NCBI GenBank assembly: GCA_964016885.1
Contig: OZ024745.1
Span: 40,610,001 to 40,674,000, forward strand
DNA length: 64,000 nt
Origin: Eledone cirrhosa
Lineage: Eukaryota
Direction of reading: 5' to 3'
Below the pieces are notes generated by a model. The model saw only the letters and a program-made list of their open reading frames with translations. It was not told the DNA's origin and made no database searches. The position numbers and the translations under genes were made by a program. Every line of letters starts with the position of its first letter. Position 1 is the stretch's first letter. Shown one piece after another: positions 16,557-63,739 of this stretch.

Positions 16557-17745
16557 TAATCGGCCATATTAGGTGCCGTGGAGAAAGTATTTCCGTACTG
16601 TTTAAAAGCGAGGCACTCGCCCCAAAACATTCTGTAACACCATTGGTGTCAAAAGCATTCGCCTTTTCGCCTACGTACATGGGAAAAAGAACACAAAAAA
16701 TAAAAATAAAAAATAACATCAAACATTAACATCTGGTGGATCTTGGCTGGCTTCTTAGAGCCAGACACTGATGCGACTCTTTCGATACGGAAGTCTATTA
16801 GACAAAGGTGGGCGGGTACTGATTCGGAGATTCTAATGCAGATGAGGCCGGAGATAATCGCCAAAATACCCGAAAAAATCGTCATCGAGGACAACAACAA
16901 AATAAACATTTCGGTGGAGGGGCGTAAACCTCATTGCTTTCACTGTGGTAGCACAACACACCTAAAAGCATCCTGTCCTTCACAAACACACCACAACAAC
17001 CTCATTAAAAAAACACTATTACCAACACCAACACCAAAACAACCACCACCACAAGTACAACAACAGACGAAACGAGCAAACACACCAAAACAAACAGACA
17101 CTCAACCAACAACAACAGGAAAAACACAGGCAACACCTCTGAAGAACACAACCACACCCCATCCCACTCCATCAATCATTACCACAAACGCACACACCGA
17201 AACAACATCACCACACAACATTCCCCTACCCCAAACTCCTGACGATGATCATTTATCGAGGGATAAGGATGCTTTTCCTTCTTTAAATCACCAGCACCAA
17301 CACAACCACAGACACAAAAAACAACACACACAACACCACAACCAAACCTCCCCTACCAACAAAACAAACACCAACACCACCCCAAACACAAAAAAGAACA
17401 ATCACAGACGAACAACAAACTAAAATAACACAAACAAAACAAAAACAACAATAGACATACATCAACACCAACAATAAACATTTAATGGAAATCATCTCCC
17501 AGGACCCCAAAGTGGAAACAGGGGAAAACATTTGTAAAATCTGACACTGCACCACACCTCAAACTAATAAGGGTTCCGGTAGAAACCTACCAAAAACTAA
17601 AGAACACATTTCCACAGGACGTTGGCAAACCATGCCAAAAACCAATAAAACGTGTCCTGTTGAAATATTTCCCCACCCCACTTAACACCCCCACCAAAAC
17701 TGAAATGGAGATCGAACAACCCGATCTCCAGGAAACGGAAAGGTA
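16557..17745 (+). pseudogene. LINE ORF1 (frameshifted) with CCHC zinc knuckle and low-complexity T/P/N tail
   Basis: VLFKSEALA..FSPTYMGKRTQKIKIKN / VEGRKPHCFHCGSTTHLKASC (Cx2Cx4Hx4C). Confidence 0.75.
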
Positions 17746-17789
17746 AGTGCATCCTTCCGCCCTTGTTTTGCCAACACTTCTACACCAAC

Positions 17790-20700
17790 ATGGCTGATTT
17801 ACGAGTTGGAAGTCTGAATGTGCGTGGCCTAGGGACGCCCTGAAAACAGGGCAAACTCTTAAACGACCTTAGGTCACACGATATAGATGTGATAGCCATC
17901 ACCGAGTCCAGGATCCACAGGAGACAGCAGCTGACCCCCATCTTCGACGACTTTGAGATCTATGCATCTCTCTGTCAGCCAGGAGGTGGAGGGGGAGTAG
18001 CTGTCATGATACGGGAAAACATGGACATCGAAATACAGCAAGTATATTTGGACCCGGAGGGTAGACTGGTAGTCCTAGACGTGAACAGTATTGAAGGTGG
18101 AGCCTTCAGACTGGTGGCGGTTTATGCCCCGACAGGGCCATCGCAATCACGGCCAGAATTCTTTAAGCGTCTAGAGTCTTTTCTGGGAACGTCTGGCTCC
18201 TTACTTTTAGTGGGGGACTGAAATGGTATCCTAGATGCACGATGGGACTATGTGGGAGCATGTCCCAGTAGAGAGTGGTGCAACAGCCTCAAAACTTTAA
18301 TCGACCAATTCCAACTGGCCGATAGGTATCAACTCGATTTACCGACTGCACCACAGTCGACGTGGGCAAACCGCAGCGGGATATCGAGATCGTATTTAGA
18401 TAGGCTCTTCATTAGAGAAAGGGAGAAGGAGATATTAAGCTGTCCACGAATGCATATGGTTTTCTTGTTACGATCAAAAATTAGTTCTCTGCATAGTCAA
18501 CCGTGATAGAACACATAGACAGGGACCAGGATACTGGAAGCTGAACGTGTCGTTGCCGGCACGTAAAGCTTACAGTGAACGGATAAATAAACTAGTCAAG
18601 CAACAATTAACGGGAGCTATCGTCAAAAATAGATGGTGGTACTCTCTCAAGAAAGCAATTAGATTAGAATCGATAGGGTTTAGCAGAGAGTTAGCCTTAG
18701 AGAAAAAAATTAGAAAGAGAACTAGTAGCCAAGGAAGAGGAGGCACTTAGAAGTGGCAACGCGGCTAGAGTATTATGTCGAGAACGGCACTGGACCAGTT
18801 CTTTGATGCGAAACACGAAGGTTGCGTGGTCACAAGCAAAGCACGTGCTCTAGGAAACGAAGGAGCGAAAGCTGTCAGCTGGGCCCGAGTGGCGGAGGCA
18901 AAAAGTGGCAACAAGTCCACGATTCGGTCTTTGAAAGACCAAAACGGACGCGCTTTTCAGCAGCACTCTGCCCGACTGTTTCAGCAGAACGACGGTGAGC
19001 CGAACGAGGCAATGGACTTTAGTCCATACCTCGACGGCCTGCCGCGTCTCTCAGACACGGATGCCGAGTTCTGCGAAAGACCGATTACGGACACTGAGAT
19101 ACGGGACGCTCTGGGCTGCTGCGGGAAACGCAAGTCACCCGGTCTAGATGGTCTACACTATGAGTTTTAGATAGCCATGTCGGAGTGTTCTCTGGCGTCC
19201 TCGAAGCCGTCTACTGCAATTGGCAGCAGAACGGGAGAATTCCCAGTTCTACGCTGATCAGGAAAGACGAGAGCAAGGGTGACGAAATTAACAATTTCAG
19301 GCCCATATCTCTGCTCAACACAGAGTTAAAGATTTTGGCCAAGGTGTTAGCGACGAGGTTGGCGCTTGTCGTCGAGAACCTGGTAGGGAAAGCGAAAACG
19401 TGTGCAATCCCGACCAGGTCCATACACGACAACCTGCACCTCATGCGATACATCATAGAGATGGTGGGTAGCAAACCCGGCTTCGGTGGGGCTCTGATCA
19501 ATTTGGATCAGTCTAAGGCTTTCGATAGTCGACCTTCTATACTTGGAAGCGGTTCCGTTTTCAGAGGCTGCATCGAGGCGATGAACACCAGCATCTGCTC
19601 GAGGGTCAAGGTGAACGGCTACCTATCGGAGCTGTTCGCAATCACGCGTTCCATTCGACAGGGATGCCCTCTCTCTTCCATTCTGCATGTATTGACTCTA
19701 GAGCCACTACTGCGTAAGTTGGAGCTATTGCAAGGCATCCCTCTAGAACCGGGACTGCGCAAAGCGGCGTCGGTTTATGCCGACGACATGACGGTAAAGG
19801 TGCCGAGCAACTCCAAAATCGGGGTGATCAGCAACTTACTGAAAGAATACTAAACGCAAACGGGAGCAAAACTAAACCCCGAAAAGTCTGTCGGTTTGCA
19901 ACTCGGTACGTGGAGAGGCAAACCGATGACGTTCGATAGCGTCGTTGTAGGTTGGACGGGTGGACTGGTGAAATCGCTCGGGGTATGGTTCGGTCCAGAC
20001 CTCCAGGTGGAGAAAAACTGGAATGAGGTTACAGTCAAGTTGTTTGCGTCACCCAGAAGTGGGCAGAGTGAAAACTGTCCTTGAAAGGTCGAGTGGAGGT
20101 GGCGAACGCTTTCATAGCCTCCGTCATCTACTACCGCTTGACTGTCGTGCCTTGTCCCCGTGAACACCTCGCCAAGATGGAACGCATGCTCTTCCAGTTT
20201 CTGTGGAAGAAGCAGGCTCCGCTGGTGAGGAGACACGTCTGCTGTCAGCACCCTTTCATCGGAGGGCTATAAATGCCGTGGCCGATGATGCCCAAACATG
20301 CGCTGAGTCTTCGGCATCTCCAGGTATTCCTCACCGACCCCCAACCGTTGTGGGCTTTGTTTGTGAGACAGGCTTTCCCGCAGCTCATCTCGCTGACGGA
20401 GCTGCAGTCCTGGGTCAAGAAAAGACCGAAAACGCTGGGCGCCTGGCACATTTAATGTGCTTAGGCGCTCACAGTCCTCTGGCAAGCGGGCACAGCAATC
20501 AGTGGAGACTCCACTTCGACATTCTATAGAGGGTTAGTACTTCACAAGGGCGTCGACGTGCTCGGAGAGACTCTAGGCGTCGAATACGACGAACTCACCA
20601 CTCTGTTTGAGGGACTTTCCTCCCGGGACTCATTGACAACTTCCAGAGGTCCCTGGCTTGGCAGTGCTACCGAGGAGCTCTACCAGTTCCTGACAATATC

Positions 20701-21160
20701 TACAGGCACGGACGCCCCCTCAGGGATCCTTCCTAGAGGACGTGTCCAAGATGCGCGCAGGACATTGAAACCGTCCTGCACGCAATTTGACACTACCAGG
20801 GCGTAACCGACCTGTGGAACTTCGCGGAACAACTGCTGTCGCGTATGGGACAAATCCAATTGACTGCCGAGTCCATAGTAAGAATCAACCCGCCAACTTC
20901 TTTCAAAAACGAAAGAGAGGCGGTTTTCCTCTGTAGAGTGGCTATGGGGAAAGAGGTTATATGCTGGACGAGATTGTGAAGACTGAGGACAGATGCCTTT
21001 CTCTCCGGCCAACAACTCATTCCCTTCTTTAGATACCACTTTAGAAGGAGAATCAGAGTGGAGTGAGAGGCACTGCACCCCAGTAAATTTACTGAGAGGT
21101 GGGTGAATGTGGCAAAAAATGGCCCGAGTCATTGGGCTTTCTCTGTATATAAACCTGTAG
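17790..21160 (+). pseudogene. LINE ORF2: apurinic-like endonuclease and reverse transcriptase, many stops and frameshifts
   Basis: MADLRVGSLNVRGL, AITES, VAVYAP, LVGD, SYLDR, KSPGLDG, FRPISLLN, DQSKAFD, RQGCPLS, YADD, CPRC...ETVLHA. Confidence 0.92.
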
Positions 21161-21403
21161 GTTGAAGAAGTGAGCAAAAGGAAGAAAGGATCACTTTCTC
21201 AACACGCTCCTGAAGTTGAGGGTTGTTCTATCGACGGGGTATTAAACAACCCATTTGTGGAGCCTCCGCCATATTGGGGATTTCGATTGTTATCATTGTT
21301 TGTTTTATATTTTTTTACAGGATTGTATGTAAAATACCCGGCAGGTCTTTGTTTTGTCCACTTTTCTTGTGCGCCATTGTGGCTAATAAGGAAATCTATC
21401 TAC

Positions 21404-21459
<56 letters not shown>

Positions 21460-21844
21460 TTATATATCTATCTATGAGTCTGTCTGCCTGTCTGTATGTT
21501 TCTCTTTATTCTTTCTTTCTATTGCCATTGTTGCACGTATGTTACAGTTTTCTTCTCGCAAGTAAAATACATTGGTGCATACACATTAGCTGATAACTAG
21601 AGAATGGCATCAAGGGCATAAACAGAGAAATGTAGGTAGAAACCCAGATAGAATATTGTTTGATAGATATATCCAGATCAACCAATCTCTAGTTCTTTCT
21701 CTCTCTGATTCGCCCTTTCTCTCTTTCTCTCTCTCACTACATATATGTATATATATATATATATATATATGCAAAAGTTCTATTTAAAATTGTTGGGATA
21801 CAACAAGTAAATATTTTTATAACTGATATAAAGCACTCGACAAG

Positions 21845-21908
21845 TATTTGTCTGATGAAGGCATACCATAATTTAATTTGGTATCCCTGAAATATGTATA
21901 ATGAAATA
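21845..21908 (+). ncRNA. Type I hammerhead ribozyme motif (family A element 21770-21950)
   Basis: tatttgt CTGATGA aggcatacca-loop-tggtatccct GAAA tatgta TA atgaaata. Confidence 0.8.
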
Positions 21909-21969
21909 AATATGGCTTTATAAATATAGTTTCCATTTATTAATATCGTATATATATATATATATATAT

Positions 21970-23433
21970 ATGAAAGACATAAAATAAGAAAATTATAAAA
22001 ATGAACTTACTTACTAAAATTTCACTAAACTAATTAGTTTCTGCAAGGGAATAAACATGGTTTCCGAATGGAACACATGGAAAATGCCTTTCGTCATCAG
22101 GAAGTCAATTCGAAGCTAAGTTCCCAGGTGATGCGTGGACACAGGAAACTTATACAAAAATAATTCAGTGGATGGAAAAAAGCAAGCGAGGACTAAATTC
22201 CAAGACATTGAAAAATTCACTGCCTACTTGGTCGGTGGCAAATTCAAAAGAATCAATCACGTGAAATCGAGGTTAATCAGTGTGGAGTGGGATGTTAAGA
22301 AGACAGTAGCCGAACTATTACTATGATCTATAGTAGCAGTTTTGGCAAATTTTTGCTCAACGAAATAATTTGGAGATAATTATAAAGAATTAGTATATCT
22401 ACCAACATATATATACAGATGCATACCTATGCTAGCAAATATATAGGTGTTGTCTTAGTAACTTTGTGGTTCAATGCAAGGGGATGCAGAGCAATTATAT
22501 GAAAGACGTAAAATAAGAAATTTATAAAAATTAACTTACTTACTAAAATTTCACTCCAACTAATTAGTTTCTGAAAGGGAATAAACATGGTTTCCGAATG
22601 GAACACATGGAGAATGCCTTTCGTCTTCAGGAATTCCATTCTCAGCTAAGTTCCCAGGCGATGCGTGGACACAGGGAACTTATACAAAAATAATTCAGTG
22701 GATGGAAAAAAGCAAGCGAGGACTAAATGTCAAGACATTGAAAAAATGTTAGTAAGTTAATTTTTATAATTTTCTTATTTTACGTCTTTCATATAATTGC
22801 TCTGCATCTCCTTGCATTGAACCACAAAGTTACTAAGACAAAACCTATATATTTGCTAGCATACGTATGCATCTGTATATATATATTGGTAGATATACTA
22901 ATTCTTTATAATTATCTCCAAATTATTTTGTTGAGCAAAAATTTGCCAAAACTGCTACTATAGTCCATAGTAATAGCTCCGCTACTGTCTTCTTAACACC
23001 CCACTCCTTACTGATTAACCTCGATGTCACGTGATTGATTATTTTGAATTTGCCACCGACCAAGTAGGCAGTGATTTTTTCAATGTCTTGGAATTTAGTC
23101 CTCGCTTGCTTTTTTCCATCCACCTAATTATTTTTGTATAAGTGCCCTGTGTCCACGCATCGCTTGGGAACTTAGCTGAGGATTGACTTCCTGATGACGA
23201 AAGGCATTTTCCATGTGTTCCATTCGGAAACCATGTTTTTCCTTTTCAGAAACTAATTAGTTGGAGTGAAATTTAAGTAAGTTAATTTTTATAATTTTCT
23301 TATTTTACGTCTTTCATATAATTGCTCTGCATCCCCTTGCAATGAACCACAAAATTACTAAGACAAAACCTATATATTTGCTAGCATAGGTATGCATCTG
23401 TATATATATGTTGGTAGATATACAAATTCTTTA
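21970..23433. mobile_element. 530-bp hammerhead-bearing unit in tandem plus inverted array (retrozyme-like, family E)
   Basis: ~1.45 head-to-tail units (21970-22746) then ~1.3 inverted units (22749-23433); hammerheads at 22023-22105 (-), 22553-22635 (-), 23186-23267 (+); no coding signal. Confidence 0.8.
23186..23267 (+). ncRNA. Type I hammerhead with extended stem II
   Basis: acttc CTGATGA c gaaagg...cctttt ca GAAA ctaattag TT ggagt; palindromic stem III; N7 varies T/A between copies. Confidence 0.75.
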
Positions 23434-23470
23434 TATATATATATACTTATATATATATACGTACATATAT

Positions 23471-23584
<114 letters not shown>

Positions 23585-23763
23585 GTATATATATATATAA
23601 TAATGGTTCACGGACCCACCATATTTATCAATGCCGGTACCGGTTGAATCACAGCTCACTCAACGGCAATGTATTTGACTCAACACGACACACGTAAAAC
23701 GGGTGCCTATAAGGTTCTCGGACTCGAGTTTCTGCCCCACTAATATAGCAGTAAGCTTATTTG

Positions 23764-23927: not shown

Positions 23928-24397
<470 letters not shown>

Positions 24398-24751: not shown

Positions 24752-24823
<72 letters not shown>

Positions 24824-24834
24824 TAACAGATTAA

Positions 24835-24885
24835 AGTTTAAGCAAAGAATCGCTGCTTTCACCCTTAACGGGATCTTCTGAAACT
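24835..24885 (-). ncRNA. Type I hammerhead, variant core CAGAAGA
   Basis: Minus strand: agttt CAGAAGA t ccc-gttaa-ggg t GAAA gca-gcgattctt-tgc TT aaact. Confidence 0.6.
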
Positions 24886-25818
24886 AACAAAGTCAATCTG
24901 TAAACGCAGAAGTGGATATTTCAAGAAACGTTGCAACAGGAGGAACACGGGAAGACGATACTCTGGTTCGTGGAAACGTTCGCTAGCAAAGAACGGGAAA
25001 AACGAATATAATACCGTCATTAATAGGAGCGGTGAAAAACAATTACGCGCAAAGACAGAACCACGTTTATGGTATAAAAGAGGTCGTAGACTAATGTTCT
25101 CTTAGGTGGTTCATAGAGACGTTCTCTGGCAATGAACGAAAAAAACGAAGATAATACGTCATATGTGGAACGTGGAGAACAATAGCACTCAAAGACAAAA
25201 CCACGTAAATGGTATAGCAGAAATCGTAGACTAAAATTCTAACTAAGAGACCGAATGAATCTCCGCTACAGAGTTAAGAACAAAGTAAATAAATACAATA
25301 CAGAAGTAATAGAAAGAAAGAAATACATACACGCAAACAAATACGTACATACACATGCATACGCAGAACACTTACCATCGGTATACAAAACCACGCACAT
25401 ATAAATATGTGTTTGTGTATGCGTGTATACAAATAAATAAATAATTATATAAACGTATATAAATAAATAAATACGTATATAACAAGCGCACACACATACC
25501 TACATGGAAATACACGAATGTTCGGAGACGTAAGTCAACCAAAACATGAAATACACATATACACATACCCAACATACGTACGAACCTGCATACTCACACA
25601 GACGCAAAACTCCCGTATACACATAGCCAAACCATATGTACCAGAATATATAAAATTATACGCCATAACATAAACAATCAAATATACGTACGAGAAGGTA
25701 TACGTACCTTCACCAAGCATACGGGTAAAATATACTTACCTATGCAAATAAGTAATGGTATAAACAAAACATACTTAGCTCCCACATCAAGACGTAAAAT
25801 ATCCACGTATAAATCGTA

Positions 25819-27960
25819 CTATCCGTTAGGGTATAACGTGGGGCTGTAATACAGGAAAGTGTTGTGCAATTTATGTTTACAAGCCGAAATTGCCTCAGAT
25901 TTTTTGTTTAAGATGTGGTCTGTGGCGTAGAGTATTTCCAGGGCCTCAGCAGCGCAGAGGTCACATGGTCTTTTATTTCCGTTATACGATCTAGCCCTAG
26001 CTAGGATCTCCCAGTGTAACTTATATTGGGTGTGGTTGTCTTTTAGACTCCAGATATAAGCTGAAAGTGACGTCATATTCCTTCTTAGAGGGTATCGAAA
26101 AGAATGGGTATGCATGTAAAGACGCTGCTTGAATCTATTGGCGGTTAACCCTATGTAGGCCCTACGGGACGTGGGTGTTACAACCTTACATTTGTAGACA
26201 ATGTTACTAGAGAGGCATTTCCCGGATAGGGGGCAATCAACCCGATTCCTACAATTACAGTTAGTACTAACTACAGGGTGGCACGTGTTCCTACGGCTAG
26301 GTAGTTTAGCTAAATTTGAAGCTGTGATGTTATGTGCAATGTTAGGAGTCGTAGAGTAAGAAATGTTAATAGTATTTCTATTAAAAATTTTACTATACTT
26401 ATGTGTAGGGGGAAAATGCTTCGTAATAAGGGAAAGAAAGATCTTAGCTAATGGTGTGGCCACCTCCATATTATATGGTGGGTTATACCAACAAATGCGA
26501 CGGGATCTATTTCTTCTAGGTCTATTTTCGTACTCTGTATATGCTACCTTATCGACAAATCCACTTCGAGCAAGAGCTTCATTGTAATAAGTGGAATGGT
26601 CGTTGAAAATACGCTCGTTGGTGGAAAGACGGGAAAGCCTCAACGAAACGTTTCTTACCAGGTTCTTGGTTATGCTGGCAGGATGGTTGGAATGCTTACT
26701 TATATAATTAAGCGTATCATTCGGCTTTCTATACTGGTAATACAACCCATTCATTAAATTGAGGGTAACGTCGAGGTAATTAACGACCGAGGGATTGGCC
26801 TCAACCTGTATAGAGAGGTTGAAGCCTTTAAAGAAGACTGTGAGTTCTTTTCTGAACCTGTCGCAAGCACGAGGTCCGCACTTAGTCATGGTCAAAAGAC
26901 CATCGTCACGGTACAAACCACCACCCGCGTTGGGGAATCCGTCTTTGATAGAGAAAAGAAGGAAAAGGCCTATAAGATCAGTAACCTCCGCAGAATCACT
27001 GGCGCCCATACTCACGTCGAATGGAGTACTATTGGATTTTTTAATCCAAATAGAGTCGTCGAAATTAATCACCGACTTTCGGGCATTGAGGATGACATCA
27101 ACTTCGAAATCCTTAACCACTGTGAGTGTTTTAGCGAAATTGATAGCTCTAAGGAGAAGTGGTAAAGTGAGGAGGACTAGTAATTGTTGATGTCGAATTG
27201 GATAAAACGGCAATGTTCCTTGTTACATATGCCGTTGAACCAATCAATCACCGCGAAAGAATTGTTCCACAGTGCAAGAGGGGCCAAACTTCTAATTTCA
27301 GGTATCATTCTAACAAGAATCGTTTTACTAAGTCTACCTAAATCGGACTTCGTAGGGTTAATAAGCCGAATAGAGGGGTTGTTCGGAAAATTGGATTTGT
27401 GATCCTTCAGGGTAAAGTGGGGAGAAATATGGTCCAGAGGTTCGGTCCGGTCCAGGATGTTGAGATCAGATGTGATTTAAACCCAGCATCGTTGATTTCA
27501 TTGATGACGCACCGATTTACGGTAATCCGATTTACGGTAATCCTTAGTTACAGCATTATGTAGTAGTTGATGGTAAGTACTGCGCTCCACTTGATATAGG
27601 TTGCCAGTTTTGTCGGAATGGACGTGCACGGCATTAGAATCCTTAATAGAACGAATTCTATTCTTCAGGTCTTGCTGGAATAAATTGCTCCTATTCCGAA
27701 ATTTGATACTCTGAATGAGTTCCAAGACATCATTTTCGAAGGGTAGCAATGCTGGTTTACACGGGGGGTTATTATAGGTTTTAAATCCAAATTTATCCTG
27801 TTTGTTGTCTGCTTTTCGCGGATTATCGAAATAAAAGGCACGCCAACGCAACCTTTTAATGAACGCGTGTTTTCTGTATCAGGAGTTTTAGATATTTTTT
27901 CCTGCTTGGTACGTATATGTTCTTTGTAGAAATATTCAGATGTCCAAAATTAAGATAAAT
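25819..27960 (-). pseudogene. Penelope-type reverse transcriptase and C-terminal GIY-YIG endonuclease
   Basis: STKNI, RLRWRAFYF, MGASDSAE, GLYRDDGL, VNYLDVTLNL, CNCRNRVDCPLSGKC (CxCx5Cx5C), IVY...YIG, CDLC, LNKKSE..CKH; frameshifts upstream of 27213. Confidence 0.92.
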
Positions 27961-57962: not shown

Positions 57963-60900
57963 TAGAAAGGATGAATATAAAATGAAAGTGCTTTTTTTAA
58001 AAAAGGAATTTATTAGGTATTGACATATGTTTCTGTAACAGACTGAATACCTATGTATCGCTGCTTGCGTAATGATATAATGTTAGCAAGTATTCGATAG
58101 CAAATGTATAATCAGTTGTCACTTCTTCAGAGATTTTGGATAAATTGGATAAAATCAGAAAAATTGAAGTATTTATATTAGTAATAGAGGAAGAAACAGA
58201 GGGGATAGTACATGACAGATGGTAAATTAATTTACTGCTAAACAAGTATATAATGGGTTTCTAATGAGAATAGCATGAGTAAATCTAAATAAGAATTTTG
58301 GGAGTGCCAATTTTAATCTCTACTTGACCAACTGGACAGTGGACAGGGCTGGTCATTTGGTGCAGTAGTATTAATTATAAGGTGTCAATTGGGGAAGGGG
58401 GAGATTTCGATTGCTACTAAATAACATCAATGCTAGTAGTCAGCTGGTATATGCATTAGGGAATTGAATCAAGAAATCAGAAATCTCATTCTATCTATAG
58501 CAGTTTGTATTAAAAGGTAAATAATAGAGGAGTTGATAGAATTAAGACTAATAAAGAATGTTAATATCTATTTTGACGATAGAACGCAACCCTTAACACC
58601 AGCTATACCATCCTTCAACCTGAAGGACCACAAGGTAAACTTCGATACTAACCCTAATATTAGACTTATATGCCCCTCTAAATCTGATATAGGCAAAATT
58701 AGCAAATATATACTAGTCAGAATTATCCCCCAAGTTAAGGTTAAAGTAGAGATTAAACTATGGGGTAACACTCATGAAGCAATAAGATGGTTTAATAACA
58801 TTACTGATAAGAAACAATCAAAATTTATTCAGTTTGATATTGATGAATATTATTCCTCAATTTCACCTGATACTCTACATGAAGCTCTTTCGTTCGCTAA
58901 GGATAATTCCGACCTTACGGATGCTGAAATTAAAATTATTATGGAAGCGAGGAAAACTATAGTTAAATTCGATGATAGCTACTGGGTTCGCAAAGATAGA
59001 CCTTCTAATTTTGATATCACTATGGGTTCTAATGATTCGGCGGAAGTAACAGATCTTGTGGGAATTTATATCACCCACAGATTACAAGGAAAATTCAAGG
59101 ATCTCCACGGTGGAATCTACCGTGACGATGCGCTCCTATTAGTTAAGCATATGAATAACCAGAATTTAGAAAGGATGCGTAAAAATATCAGAAAGCTTTT
59201 TAAGGAACTAGGATTAAATATTACATTTGAATATAACCTCAAAGAGGTCAATTTCCTTGATGTTACTTTCAATCTCAATACAGATACGATTAAACCGTTC
59301 CATAAACTAAATGAGAACCTTAAATATGTAAATACGAGTTCTAACCATCCACTCTCTATAATTAAATCCATCCCTAGAAATGTTTCTCTTAGAATCTCCC
59401 GCCTGTCGTCCAGCCAACAAACCTTCAAAGAACATGCCGAATATTATGATGATGCACTTAGGAAAGCCGGTCACCTAGATAATATAGAGTATATAGTCAA
59501 AGATCACCAAAACACCCAAAATAAATCCCATAGGAGTAGAAATAGCACAGAATCACCACCGCAATAGACACAATAATAGTCTCACACCACCAAACAGAAG
59601 GCGATGTAAGGAGTATATTTGGTACAACCCGGTCTATAACAACTCTATTAAAACCAATCTACCCTCAAAATTCTTTCGATTAGTTAAAAAACACTTTCCA
59701 ACATCACATAAATATAATAAAATCTTAAACCCTAACACTATTCGACTTTCATATTCAACCGCCCCTAATATTGAACAACATATAAAAAAGCTTAACACAA
59801 AACGGTTGTATAAACGCCTTCCAACACATAACAATACACGTAAAACATTAGCTATAACATCACAAAACAACAAACAACATCCTGTCCTACATAAGCAACC
59901 TCATCAACCCATCCATGGCAATACAACAACGCAAAATTATAATTGCAACTGTGTCCAACCAGGAATGTGTCCGTTGAACAATCAGTGTCTTGAACGTAAC
60001 ATCGTATACAAATGTACTATCGAATCGGATAGACAGAAGTGGTACTATGTGGGATCTACAGCCACCTCCTTCAAATCACGCCTTTATAGACATCGTTACT
60101 CGATAAAACATGAAAACCAGCGTTATGTAACAACACTCGCAGACAAGGCTTGGCAGCTGCGTGAAAATAACCAACAATTTCACCTAAAATGGGATATAAT
60201 AGCGGCTGCCCCCCCCCCCCCCCCCCCTATCCCATGGACAGGAATTTTGTAAATTATGTAATGTAGAATGATTTTGTATTATGAAATCCAAAAACATTTT
60301 ATTAAATAACAGAATAGAGCGATCGTTATACTGTAACCATCGCTTAAAATCTACATTTTCATATAAATACTACCAGGATTGAACGCCTGTCTCTATCCCC
60401 GTTTGATTGTCAAAATAGATATTAACATTCTTTATTAGTCTTAATTCTATCAACTCCTCTATTATTTACCTTTTAATACAAACTGCTATGGATAGAATGA
60501 GATTTCTGATTTCTTGATTCAATTCCCTAATGCATATACCAGCTGACTACTAGCATTGATGTTATTTAGTAGCAATCGAAATCTCCCCCTTCCCCAATTG
60601 ACACCTTATAATTAATACTACTGCACCAAATGACCAGCCCTGTCCACTGTCCAGTTGGTCAGGTAGAGATTAAAATTGGCACTCCCAAAATTCTTATTTA
60701 GATTTACTCATGCTATTCTCATTAGAAACCCATTATATACTTGTTTAGCAGTAAATTAATTTACCATCTGTCTTGTACTATCCCCTCTGTTTCTTCCTCT
60801 ATTACTAATATAAATACTTCAATTTTTCTGATTTTATCCAATTTATCCAAAATCTCTGAAGAAGTGACAACTGATTATACATTTGCTATCGAATACTTGC

Positions 60901-62294: not shown

Positions 62295-62461
62295 TGTATG
62301 TATGTATGTATGTATGTATGTATGTATGTATGTATGTATCACTCGTACAGCGCATCGGTAGGCGTTCTCCTACATGGATATAAAGTAGTGGCCGTACTCG
62401 AAAACGAGTTGGCAGCCACCATGTATGTATGTATGTATGTATCTATGTATGTATCTATTGT

Positions 62462-63739
62462 GTTTACATCCGATATCGAACCTCATGCAGCGTATTTAAC
62501 ATCAGGCGCTTTGCTGCGAAGACAAAAGTATTTACATCAATCATAAGAGACCTCTTGTATGCAGATGATTGCGATCTTGTAGCGCACACAGAGAGTGATA
62601 TGCAGCACATTTTGAATGCATTTTCTGATGCTTGCACTGCCCTAGGTCTGACTGTCAGTCTCAAGAAAACCGTCGTCATGTACCAACCTGCCCCTGGTAA
62701 GCAGTACACTGAACCAAACATCCATGTGTATGGCAAACGACTTGGAGTGGTTGATCAGTTTGTCTACCTGGGAAGCACTGTCAATCGATACAGCAACCTT
62801 GACAGTGAAATCTCACTTAGGATTAGGAAAGCAAGTGATGCTTTCGGAAAGCTAGAAAGGCGACTCTGGGGTCGGCGAGACATATGCAGGAGGACAAAGG
62901 TAAAGGTGTACAGGGCATGTTTGCTCTCTTGTCTTCTTTATGCTTGCGAGACCTGGGTCACATATCGACACCACCTTAAGCAATTGGAGCGTTTCCATCA
63001 GATGTGTCTCAGACGGATCCATGGCGTTCGCTGGAGGGACCACATCAGTGATGTCGAGATTTTGGAAAGCTCTATGTGTGACAGTATAGAAGCTCTTGTG
63101 CTGAAGCAACGACTCCGTTGGAGTGGTCACCTTGCCAGGATGAAGGATTCTAGAATACCAAAACAACTCTTTTATGGAGAGTTGGTTAAAGGAAAACGAC
63201 CGCCACATAAAACAAAAAAGAGGTATAAGGATTCCTTGAAAGCCTCTCTGAAAGACGCTAACATCTCTGCTGATACATGGGAGAATATTGCTGCTGATCG
63301 TAATACATGGAGAAAGACTGTATATGAGGGAAAAAATGCCTTTGAGGCATCTCGAATCGCATACGAGAAAGTAAAGCGGGATGTGAGGAAGGGCATTGCT
63401 GATGCACTTCCAGACGGCGAGGGTCCTCCTATGGTGCTGACATGCAGCGTATGTGCGAGACTCTGCCTAAGCAAAGCTGGACTCGAAAGTCATCTTCGCA
63501 GTCATAAAGTAAGACCAGTGGTTGACTACCAGGCTGCTGTTGGAGATGCTACTCATCATGCTTGCCAAACATGTGGTAGAGAATGTAAATCAGCAGGAGG
63601 GCTCAAGCGACATGCAAAAGTACACGAACTCCAACCACAGCCGACTATTCCCAGTAAATGTTTTGGTTGCCGACTCTGTGCAAGACATTTCAGATCATTG
63701 GCTGGGCTAAAAAGCCACATTCGATCGCAGCGCTGTTAG
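62462..63739 (+). mobile_element. 5'-truncated RTE-clade LINE ORF (RT C-terminal half and three zinc fingers), uninterrupted
   Basis: IRYRT..VFNIRRF.AKTKV, LLYADDC, FVYLGS, LLYACETW, RLRWSGH, RIPKQLFYGEL; Cx2C-x12-H fingers at the C-terminus; ends in (TG)n. Confidence 0.9.

What the first reader, a model, noticed from the sequence alone, without database searches (positions are those of the whole stretch)
21970..23433. Retrozyme-like 530-bp unit: greater-than-unit tandem plus inverted multimer with three hammerheads
Seen: a non-coding unit repeated head-to-tail 1.45 times, then 1.3 times inverted with different endpoints. Hammerheads lie 530 bp apart, with palindromic stem III (ctaattag), extended stem II and variable N7. 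Established: animal non-LTR retrozymes are tandem hammerhead repeats that yield circular RNAs, and palindromic stem III supports dimeric cleavage. Inference: reverse transcription around a circular ~530-nt RNA, probably by a Penelope RT.
Basis: partly seen in the sequence, partly recalled or inferred. Interest (0 to 1): 0.75.

Follow-up and report, generated by a model that had tools for sequence, protein, structure and literature searches.

The report
Penelope-copied hammerhead repeat, two fixed ends
This is one copy of an abundant 530-base non-coding jumping repeat that carries a conserved, probably self-cutting RNA fold and lands in TA microsatellites as two back-to-back arms ending at two fixed points, a footprint shared with this genome's Penelope-type retrotransposons, which likely copy it.

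Summary
In detail: a 530-bp non-coding unit, 1.47 copies on the minus strand joined back-to-back to 1.31 copies on the plus strand, with three type I hammerheads, inside (TA)n. It belongs to a large dispersed family. The hammerhead is real as a fold: stems I and II covary across subfamilies. Ends are not circularly permuted: 176 of 195 arms end at two sites 115 nt apart, and inverted insertions pair one of each (53 of 56; 18 of 18 in two other subfamilies). An ORF-bearing Penelope-like family with the Hydra-clade motif shows the same footprint (5 of 5). No copy was attached to an RT ORF. All arms of one insertion share one haplotype. So it is a non-autonomous Penelope-type retrozyme, likely primed from both target strands at two internal RNA sites. 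Circle versus partly cut linear multimer stays open (about even); no RNA data were available. Ends often carry expanded repeats of the start-site dinucleotide, a possible telomerase-like slippage mark with a known rival cause. This scan reported the same architecture before for other families in this and other genomes.

The parts
21949..21970 (.). (TA)n target microsatellite, left side (shared with the end of the neighbouring second hammerhead family)
   Evidence: sequence
21971..22745 (-). Arm A: 1.47 units in hammerhead sense, 5'-truncated at u343, 3' end at start site A (u58, then TA)
22023..22106 (-). Hammerhead 1 (C3 22100, G12 22041, predicted cut 22028/22027); stem I 3 of 5 and stem II 5 of 6 pairs, probably decayed
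22553..22636 (-). Hammerhead 2 (C3 22630, N7 = A, G12 22571, predicted cut 22558/22557); stem I 4 of 5 pairs
22746..22747 (.). Head-to-head junction of the two truncated 5' ends (2 unassigned bases)
22748..23431 (+). Arm B: 1.31 units, 5' end at u15 just downstream of the predicted cut site, 3' end at start site B (u172-173, then TA)
23186..23267 (+). Hammerhead 3, intact type I: 5-bp stem I, core CUGAUGA, one extra base on each side of the G-C that opens stem II, long stem II, 2-bp stem III with palindromic loop, GUU triplet, predicted cut 23262/23263
23317..23431 (+). 115-nt 'tail' between start sites A and B, present only at the B end; holds a long hairpin (about 23370-23422) that is also predicted in older subfamilies
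23432..23599 (.). (TA)n target microsatellite, right side

Best explanation
The locus is a probably dead copy of a non-coding hammerhead repeat (non-LTR retrozyme) that was likely inserted by the RT-endonuclease of a (TA)n-targeting Penelope-like element, which would prime from both strands of a cut TA microsatellite on one RNA at two fixed internal sites. Shown by sequence: 530-bp unit without RT ORF, dispersed family with several subfamilies, covarying type I hammerhead, 3' ends fixed at sites A (u58) and B (u172), both followed in the unit by UAUAAU, variable 5' ends, inverted arms joined 5'-to-5' with one A and one B end, one haplotype per insertion, and the same A/B footprint in an ORF-bearing PLE family of this genome. 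Inferred: transcription gives multimeric RNA; the weak, palindromic-stem-III hammerhead cuts only some junctions (as a dimer); the PLE protein nicks both strands of (TA)n; each DNA 3' end pairs with UAUA at A or B and is extended through one or more hammerhead junctions; the two cDNA ends are joined and filled in. The template is one continuous RNA across the cut site: a ligated 530-nt circle (about 0.45) or a partly cut linear multimer from one source locus (about 0.45); the data here do not separate them.
For: Ends: 97 A + 79 B of 195 arms in 115 places; 159 of 176 run into pure (TA)n, 8 into (CT)n(TA)n, 9 other. Inverted pairs: A+B 53, A+A 2, B+B 1, 14 with an unclassified end, of 70 (one duplicated locus counted twice), in all four searches; replicate in two other subfamilies 9 of 13 and 9 of 11 pairs A+B, none A+A or B+B. 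Hammerhead: 97.9% of 286 cells paired, one stem II pair occurs as AU, UA, GC and CG, another as GC/UA, 0 of 500 shuffles reach the covariation score, slid controls 33-57% paired. ORF-bearing PLE family (window 25819-27222, open frames up to 769 aa, 78,208 first-look candidates): 20 A-type, 13 B-type, 1 other end, about 88 nt apart, in (TA)n; 5 of 5 two-ended loci pair B with A (read by eye); it has the CxCX5C linker that defines the (TA)n-targeting Hydra clade (sequence; PMC8557442 section 11). One haplotype per insertion: 86 of 86 within-locus comparisons agree at three subfamily sites chosen after the fact, against 11-31% between loci. 44 of 132 arms not selected for length exceed one unit. 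Two internal RT start sites bounding a tail, and extension of both strands, are shown in vitro for a Poseidon PLE (PMC11167929).
Against: No sequence link to a specific helper: tail similarity to the PLE family is not significant (103 of 1000 shuffles score as high) and no ORF-linked relative was found. No cleavage, RNA or protein-RNA data. The hammerhead departs from the canonical form (GUU triplet, extra base on both sides of stem II, no recognised loop 1-2 contact), and 8 of 9 predicted Xenopus retrozyme dimers did not cleave in vitro (10.64898/2026.07.22.740005). Over all 26 candidate variant sites within-locus agreement is only 69 of 125 and 80 of 155 (between loci 5175 of 48913), as many of those sites are recurrent or query-selected. 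Haplotype agreement would also arise if one source dominated at any time. In the in vitro PLE the start site was not homologous to the target, unlike the UAUA pairing inferred here. All samples are top-scoring hits, not random copies.
Confidence: 0.8

Rival explanations
1. Sub-case favoured by the first reader: the template is a covalently closed ~530-nt circle, copied by rolling, strand-displacing reverse transcription from A and B.
For: One haplotype in all laps and both arms; a variant private to this window's locus (u67) is in all three laps that cover it; arms above one unit are common although 5' truncation should shrink them each generation; no array above 4 units among the young-family hits; monomer folds better than shuffles, linear z -3.1, circular 0 of 60 shuffles as stable; animal retrozymes are expressed as circles (PMC7229834).
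Against: Rare variants at sites covered three times are shared 2-of-3 in 11 cases and 3-of-3 in only 2; sharing is 16% within an arm, 17% between arms in register but 3% between arms out of register, where a circle predicts equal values (later gene conversion could explain this). 5' ends pile up at u1-21 (22 of 121 against 6.3% exposure, P 6e-6), as if the RNA had a free end or a strong block there. Ends are not permuted.
Confidence: 0.45
2. Sub-case: the template is a linear multimer read from a tandem array or multi-unit copy and cut at only some hammerheads; no circle is involved.
For: 5'-end pile-up next to the cut site; long arrays exist for two subfamilies (525-bp period in all sampled stretches from C4:18.610 to 18.685 Mb; L225/L226); uncleaved RNA was the dominant substrate for the in vitro PLE and hammerhead mutants did not affect insertion (PMC11167929).
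Against: The pile-up was not significant in the two replicate sets (4 of 35, P 0.19; 4 of 32, P 0.11; those queries exclude short arms) and could be a folding block or microhomology at the AAATTT palindrome (u7-12). The one dispersed copy closest to the C4 array (L127) does not show the array's unit-to-unit differences between its laps. At least six young haplotypes would each need their own homogeneous source.
Confidence: 0.42
3. The unit is only the terminal repeat (pLTR) of an ordinary autonomous Penelope element, seen here as 5'-truncated ends.
For: Hammerhead, tail, (TA)n target and tandem/inverted form are all PLE traits (PMC8557442); the unit probably descends from a pLTR, as proposed for Xenopus retrozymes.
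Against: Arms pass from hammerhead to hammerhead at 513-538 bp with no ORF; none of 54 free 5' flanks continues into a shared element or PLE ORF (three nearby ORFs inspected are separate insertions); none in 45 more loci; unit has no similarity to the window's PLE proteins.
Confidence: 0.05
4. DNA-level satellite or fold-back repeat, spread by recombination or hairpin formation at (TA)n, with the hammerhead a chance motif.
For: Long satellite-like arrays exist; some multi-unit arms show later local duplication (L008, L035, L026).
Against: Strand-specific fixed 3' ends with variable 5' ends, A+B pairing, arms that are not mirror images, and covarying hammerhead stems.
Confidence: 0.03

Closest known systems
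Metazoan non-LTR retrozymes (Cervera and de la Pena 2020, PMC7229834, parts 2-4 of 6 read; Li, Clavereau and Pollet 2026, 10.64898/2026.07.22.740005, parts 1-3 of 5 read)
   Same: Non-coding, AT-rich tandem unit with one type I hammerhead per unit, short palindromic helix III, many dispersed copies, co-occurrence with PLEs; 530 bp lies within the 51-972 bp range of the 2026 preprint.
   Different: Longer than the 170-400 nt circles shown by northern; GUU triplet and long bulged stem II; fixed two-site ends and A+B inverted arms are not described for retrozymes in the parts read; expression and circularity untested here.
Hydra-clade (TA)n-targeting Penelope-like elements and PLE insertion anatomy (Craig et al. 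2021, PMC8557442, passages and section 11 read)
   Same: (TA)n target, 5' truncation, partial tandems, inverted truncated copy, tail often at one end only, hammerhead near the 3' end.
   Different: No RT-EN ORF; tail is 115 nt (88-89 nt in two other families of this genome) rather than 30-40 bp; the one-tail rule is nearly absolute here (71 of 74 classifiable pairs).
Poseidon PLE of Anolis, internal initiation in vitro (Frangieh et al. 2024, PMC11167929, parts 1-2 of 4 read)
   Same: Two internal RT start sites that bound the tail; both target strands cut and extended; AT-rich target.
   Different: There the start site is not homologous to the target and both strands use the same sites; here both sites read UAUA against a (TA)n target and the two strands use different sites.
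PLE-type hammerheads (Cervera and de la Pena 2014, PMC4209133, passages read)
   Same: Large helix II, short helix I, extra base between positions 9 and 10.1, G10.1-C11.1, palindromic helix III suited to dimer cleavage.
   Different: A second extra base between 11.1 and G12, and U at position 17.

Membership tests
Metazoan non-LTR retrozyme | Type I hammerhead in each tandem unit | tested here: met
   86 of 128 young copies keep core and all stems
Metazoan non-LTR retrozyme | Short non-coding tandem unit without RT ORF | tested here: met
Metazoan non-LTR retrozyme | At least two consecutive complete hammerheads (criterion of the 2026 preprint) | tested here: met
   37 of 195 arms, 14 of 132 not selected for length; long arrays. 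In this window both tandem hammerheads have damaged stem I.
Metazoan non-LTR retrozyme | Self-cleavage of the RNA | not testable with these tools
   only covariation and a 5'-end pile-up of mixed strength
Metazoan non-LTR retrozyme | Expressed as monomeric linear and circular RNA | not testable with these tools
   needs raw RNA reads or northern blot
Metazoan non-LTR retrozyme | Target-site duplication when present | tested here: inconclusive
   both flanks are (TA)n, so a duplication cannot be measured
Penelope-like element, autonomous | RT plus GIY-YIG ORF between terminal repeats | tested here: not met
Penelope-like element insertion anatomy | 5' truncation, partial tandem, inverted truncated copy, tail at one end | tested here: met
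   tail longer than published 30-40 bp
Non-autonomous derivative of a Hydra-clade PLE | (TA)n target and shared end pattern with a CxCX5C-bearing PLE of the same genome | tested here: met
   clade assigned by motif and domain order only, no tree built
Non-autonomous derivative of a Hydra-clade PLE | Sequence homology to the pLTR of a specific autonomous partner | tested here: inconclusive
   not significant for the one family compared; other PLE families not surveyed

The most novel reading that the evidence does not exclude
A PLE protein dimer copies a single ribozyme-made 530-nt RNA circle from two fixed sites at once, and each start involves telomerase-like realignment on a 2-4 nt template, so that the element writes new (TA)n, (CT)n(TA)n and (TCTA)n tracts at its ends. 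Sign: where start site B holds a C, ends often carry 5-20 TC repeats copied from one or two template units (8 loci; 5 of 17 ends in another subfamily, plus three with 2-3 repeats), never internal copies (0 of 31) and never ends of subfamilies without the C (0 of 19).
Probability: 0.2. Interest if true: 0.8.

Novelty: new member of a known kind. Interest (0 to 1): 0.48.

Why it matters
That animal retrozymes are moved by Penelope-like elements has been proposed from co-occurrence and pLTR similarity but not shown mechanistically in the papers read. This family gives a quantitative footprint: two exact RNA start sites, a near-absolute one-of-each rule for the two target strands, one template haplotype per event, and an abundant, young, ORF-bearing PLE family in the same genome with the same footprint. 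It names the RNA, the two start nucleotides and a candidate enzyme type for an in vitro test, and would let one ask whether a circle is the substrate. If the end repeats come from RT realignment, it links PLE initiation to telomerase-style repeat synthesis and to microsatellite growth in such genomes.

Tried and rejected
RNA evidence: no RNA holder listed; three runs of unknown kind, contigs only, one sample, show related sequence but say nothing on expression, ends or circles. Rfam: 0 hits. Pfam and PDB sequence searches with the window's PLE-like ORFs: 0 hits; their PLE assignment rests on recalled RT/GIY-YIG motifs and the CxCX5C motif from PMC8557442. Circular permutation of ends: rejected. 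L1-type twin priming on one linear pass (one arm stopping at the other's start site): not seen; 5' ends do not cluster at u58 or u172. Simple fold-back: rejected for most loci, since arms are not mirror images. A-to-I editing scars: none (A>G 72 vs T>C 107, P 0.88; no hyper-edited lap). An apparent 11% lap difference in L117 was an alignment artefact (19 differences). Shared motifs between this tail and the PLE tail: not significant. Tail hairpin: 10 of 200 shuffles as stable, so only suggestive; no covariation test run on it. The C4 array as master of dispersed copies: not shown (one locus). My automatic end classes mis-binned PLE B ends and TC-expanded ends; those counts were read by eye. 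The end-repeat sign has a published rival, duplication of an imperfection at a microsatellite edge after insertion (PMC2644718, abstract only); A ends show such CA or CATA repeats less often (6 of 89, 0 of 13, 1 of 13). The guess that the host is a cephalopod was used once as a search word and was not tested.

Full report
1. Observation. The region holds a 530-bp unit. Numbered in hammerhead sense from the first base after the predicted GUU cut (u1), the window has a minus arm u343..u62 (1.47 units) and a plus arm u15..u177 (1.31 units), joined at their truncated 5' ends, with both 3' ends pointing outward into (TA)n. Three hammerhead motifs have C3 at 22100, 22630 and 23191. No other copy lies in the window. 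The variable N7 is a single substitution (108 of 109 T). Only the third hammerhead has all stems intact, so this locus is probably a dead copy.

2. The hammerhead. Rfam finds nothing and the isolated motifs fold no better than shuffles. Relatives settle the fold. In 23 hand-picked copies spanning subfamilies of 76-97% identity (22 distinct), 97.9% of 286 cells pair; one stem II pair occurs as AU 11, UA 6, GC 4, CG 1 and another as GC 14, UA 7, GU 1; stem I also varies on both sides; no shuffle of 500 reaches the covariation score, and slid structures pair 33-57% (relatedness inflates the shuffle test, and the two measures that count pairs or pair types did not exceed the shuffles, 337 and 186 of 500). 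RNAalifold predicts the same three helices unprompted. The core, the palindrome and GUU stay fixed while loop II changes freely. Large helix II, an extra base after A9, G10.1-C11.1 and a palindromic helix III match PLE-type hammerheads, which cleave weakly and as dimers (PMC4209133, passages). Cleavage is not shown.

3. The family. The 3.0-Gb genome gives 2,674 first-look candidates for the unit (not a copy number). Four searches and two fetches gave 115 distinct places with 203 arms, of which 195 (at least 40 nt, not at a locus edge) were kept. 97 end at site A (u56-66), 79 at site B (u170-184), 19 elsewhere. 159 of these 176 run into pure (TA)n. 5' ends are spread round the unit. Of 70 back-to-back pairs 53 are A+B, 2 A+A, 1 B+B and 14 include an unclassified end (one duplicated locus counts twice). 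Two further searches with diverged subfamilies (50 loci, 5 dropped as repeats or merged, 45 left) gave 18 A, 17 B, 7 other and 13 A, 19 B, 3 other, with 9 of 13 and 9 of 11 pairs A+B and none A+A or B+B. All samples are best-scoring hits; favours long arms and favour arms that hold the tail.

4. No ORF, but a matching autonomous family. None of 54 free 5' flanks continues into a shared element or PLE frame; three nearby PLE frames inspected are separate insertions. The window's own PLE-like ORF (25819-27222) belongs to a young, very abundant family with open frames up to 769 aa. Its 3' ends fall at two sites about 88 nt apart in (TA)n (20 A, 13 B, 1 other) and 5 of 5 two-ended loci pair B with A (by eye). 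It carries CxCX5C before a C-terminal endonuclease, the mark of the (TA)n-targeting Hydra clade (PMC8557442 section 11). A second hammerhead family next to the finding (21772-21948) has the same two ends 89 nt apart (13 A, 12 B, 2 other). The footprint is thus a property of this genome's PLE machinery. No sequence homology ties the unit to this particular PLE.

5. One template per insertion. At three subfamily sites (u369, u472, u473; chosen after seeing the table) all 86 within-locus comparisons agree, against 31%, 11% and 12% between loci; over all 26 candidate sites agreement is 69 of 125 within arms, 80 of 155 between arms, 5175 of 48913 between loci. At least six haplotypes occur. In this window a private variant (u67) sits in all three laps that cover it. 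Both arms therefore come from one RNA or one source locus, or from a time when one source dominated.

6. Circle or linear multimer. Every arm longer than 58 or 172 nt crosses a hammerhead junction, and 44 of 132 arms not selected for length exceed one unit, so the template was continuous across cut sites. For a circle: point 5, the persistence of long arms despite truncation, and precedent (PMC7229834). Against: rare variants are shared 2-of-3 in 11 cases and 3-of-3 in 2, and sharing is 16%, 17% and 3% for same arm, opposite arm in register and opposite arm out of register; neither pure model fits, and later gene conversion may blur it. 5' ends pile up at u1-21 (22 of 121, exposure 6.3%, P 6e-6; B arms 13 of 60, P 1.4e-5), but not significantly in the replicates (4 of 35, 4 of 32). 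Long arrays exist for two subfamilies. In vitro a PLE used uncut RNA (PMC11167929). I rate the two about even.

7. Start-site repeats. Both sites read UAUAAU in the unit, complementary to a (TA)n primer. Where site B holds a C, ends often carry expanded TC: 8 loci in the first set (4 of 4 internal copies in those loci unexpanded), and in a replicate subfamily with a single TC, 5 of 17 ends have 5-20 repeats, one has 2, two repeat TCTA, 8 are plain and one lost the C, while 0 of 31 internal copies are expanded (by eye). Subfamilies without the C show none (0 of 19). Realignment of the RT at initiation would explain this; so would later duplication of an imperfection at the edge of a long TA tract (PMC2644718, abstract). 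A ends rarely show the analogous CA repeats. A search for Penelope, reiterative, microsatellite, telomerase and retrotransposon together found 0 papers.

8. Mechanism and comparison. Most likely a (TA)n-targeting PLE RT-endonuclease nicks both strands, pairs each 3' end with site A or B of one RNA, extends both, and joins the cDNA ends, giving the inverted form; single-arm insertions would be events with one productive start. PLE tandem/inverted insertions with a 30-40 bp tail at one end are published (PMC8557442), as are two internal start sites (PMC11167929) and the proposal that animal retrozymes are non-autonomous PLEs (10.64898/2026.07.22.740005; PMC7229834). In the parts read and the listings I did not find the one-of-each rule quantified, tails near 100 nt, or haplotype tests for retrozymes; subscription papers and supplements were not covered. 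After forming this reading I found that the scan had reported the same two-arm architecture for other families in this and other genomes; those notes are not independent support.

9. Verdict. Interest 0.48.

Noticed in passing
window 21772-21948 (also 14906 +): A second hammerhead family, small inverted insertion in the same (TA)n tract, with its own two 3' ends 89 nt apart; 490 first-look candidates; no RT ORF attached in 20 loci.
   Followed up: partly
window 24819-27222 (-): 5'-truncated copy of a very abundant young PLE family with CxCX5C linker. About 40 nt before end A it has a hammerhead-like motif whose core reads CAGAAGA (A in place of U4), conserved in nearly all of 34 ends shown; fold and activity untested.
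   Followed up: partly
G000:C4:18610000-18685000 (L139, L140, L199-L204) and L225/L226: Satellite-like arrays of older subfamilies of this unit, 525-bp period, units about 3% apart, most with the hammerhead motif; only stretches were sampled.
   Followed up: partly
window 58521-60252 (+): Second, frameshifted PLE-like RT plus endonuclease with a CxCX5C linker.
   Followed up: no
window 51299 (-): Another type I hammerhead candidate with 7-bp stem I and an extra T on each side of stem II.
   Followed up: no
window 24072-24397: Perfect 164-bp tandem duplication between TA tracts.
   Followed up: no
window 16710-21200 and 62384-63739: Broken LINE-like frames (Gag-like and RT motifs, recalled) and an RTE-like RT C-terminal frame.
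   Followed up: no
L090, L108, L211: Two different subfamilies inserted side by side in the same microsatellite, showing repeated use of one TA tract.
   Followed up: partly
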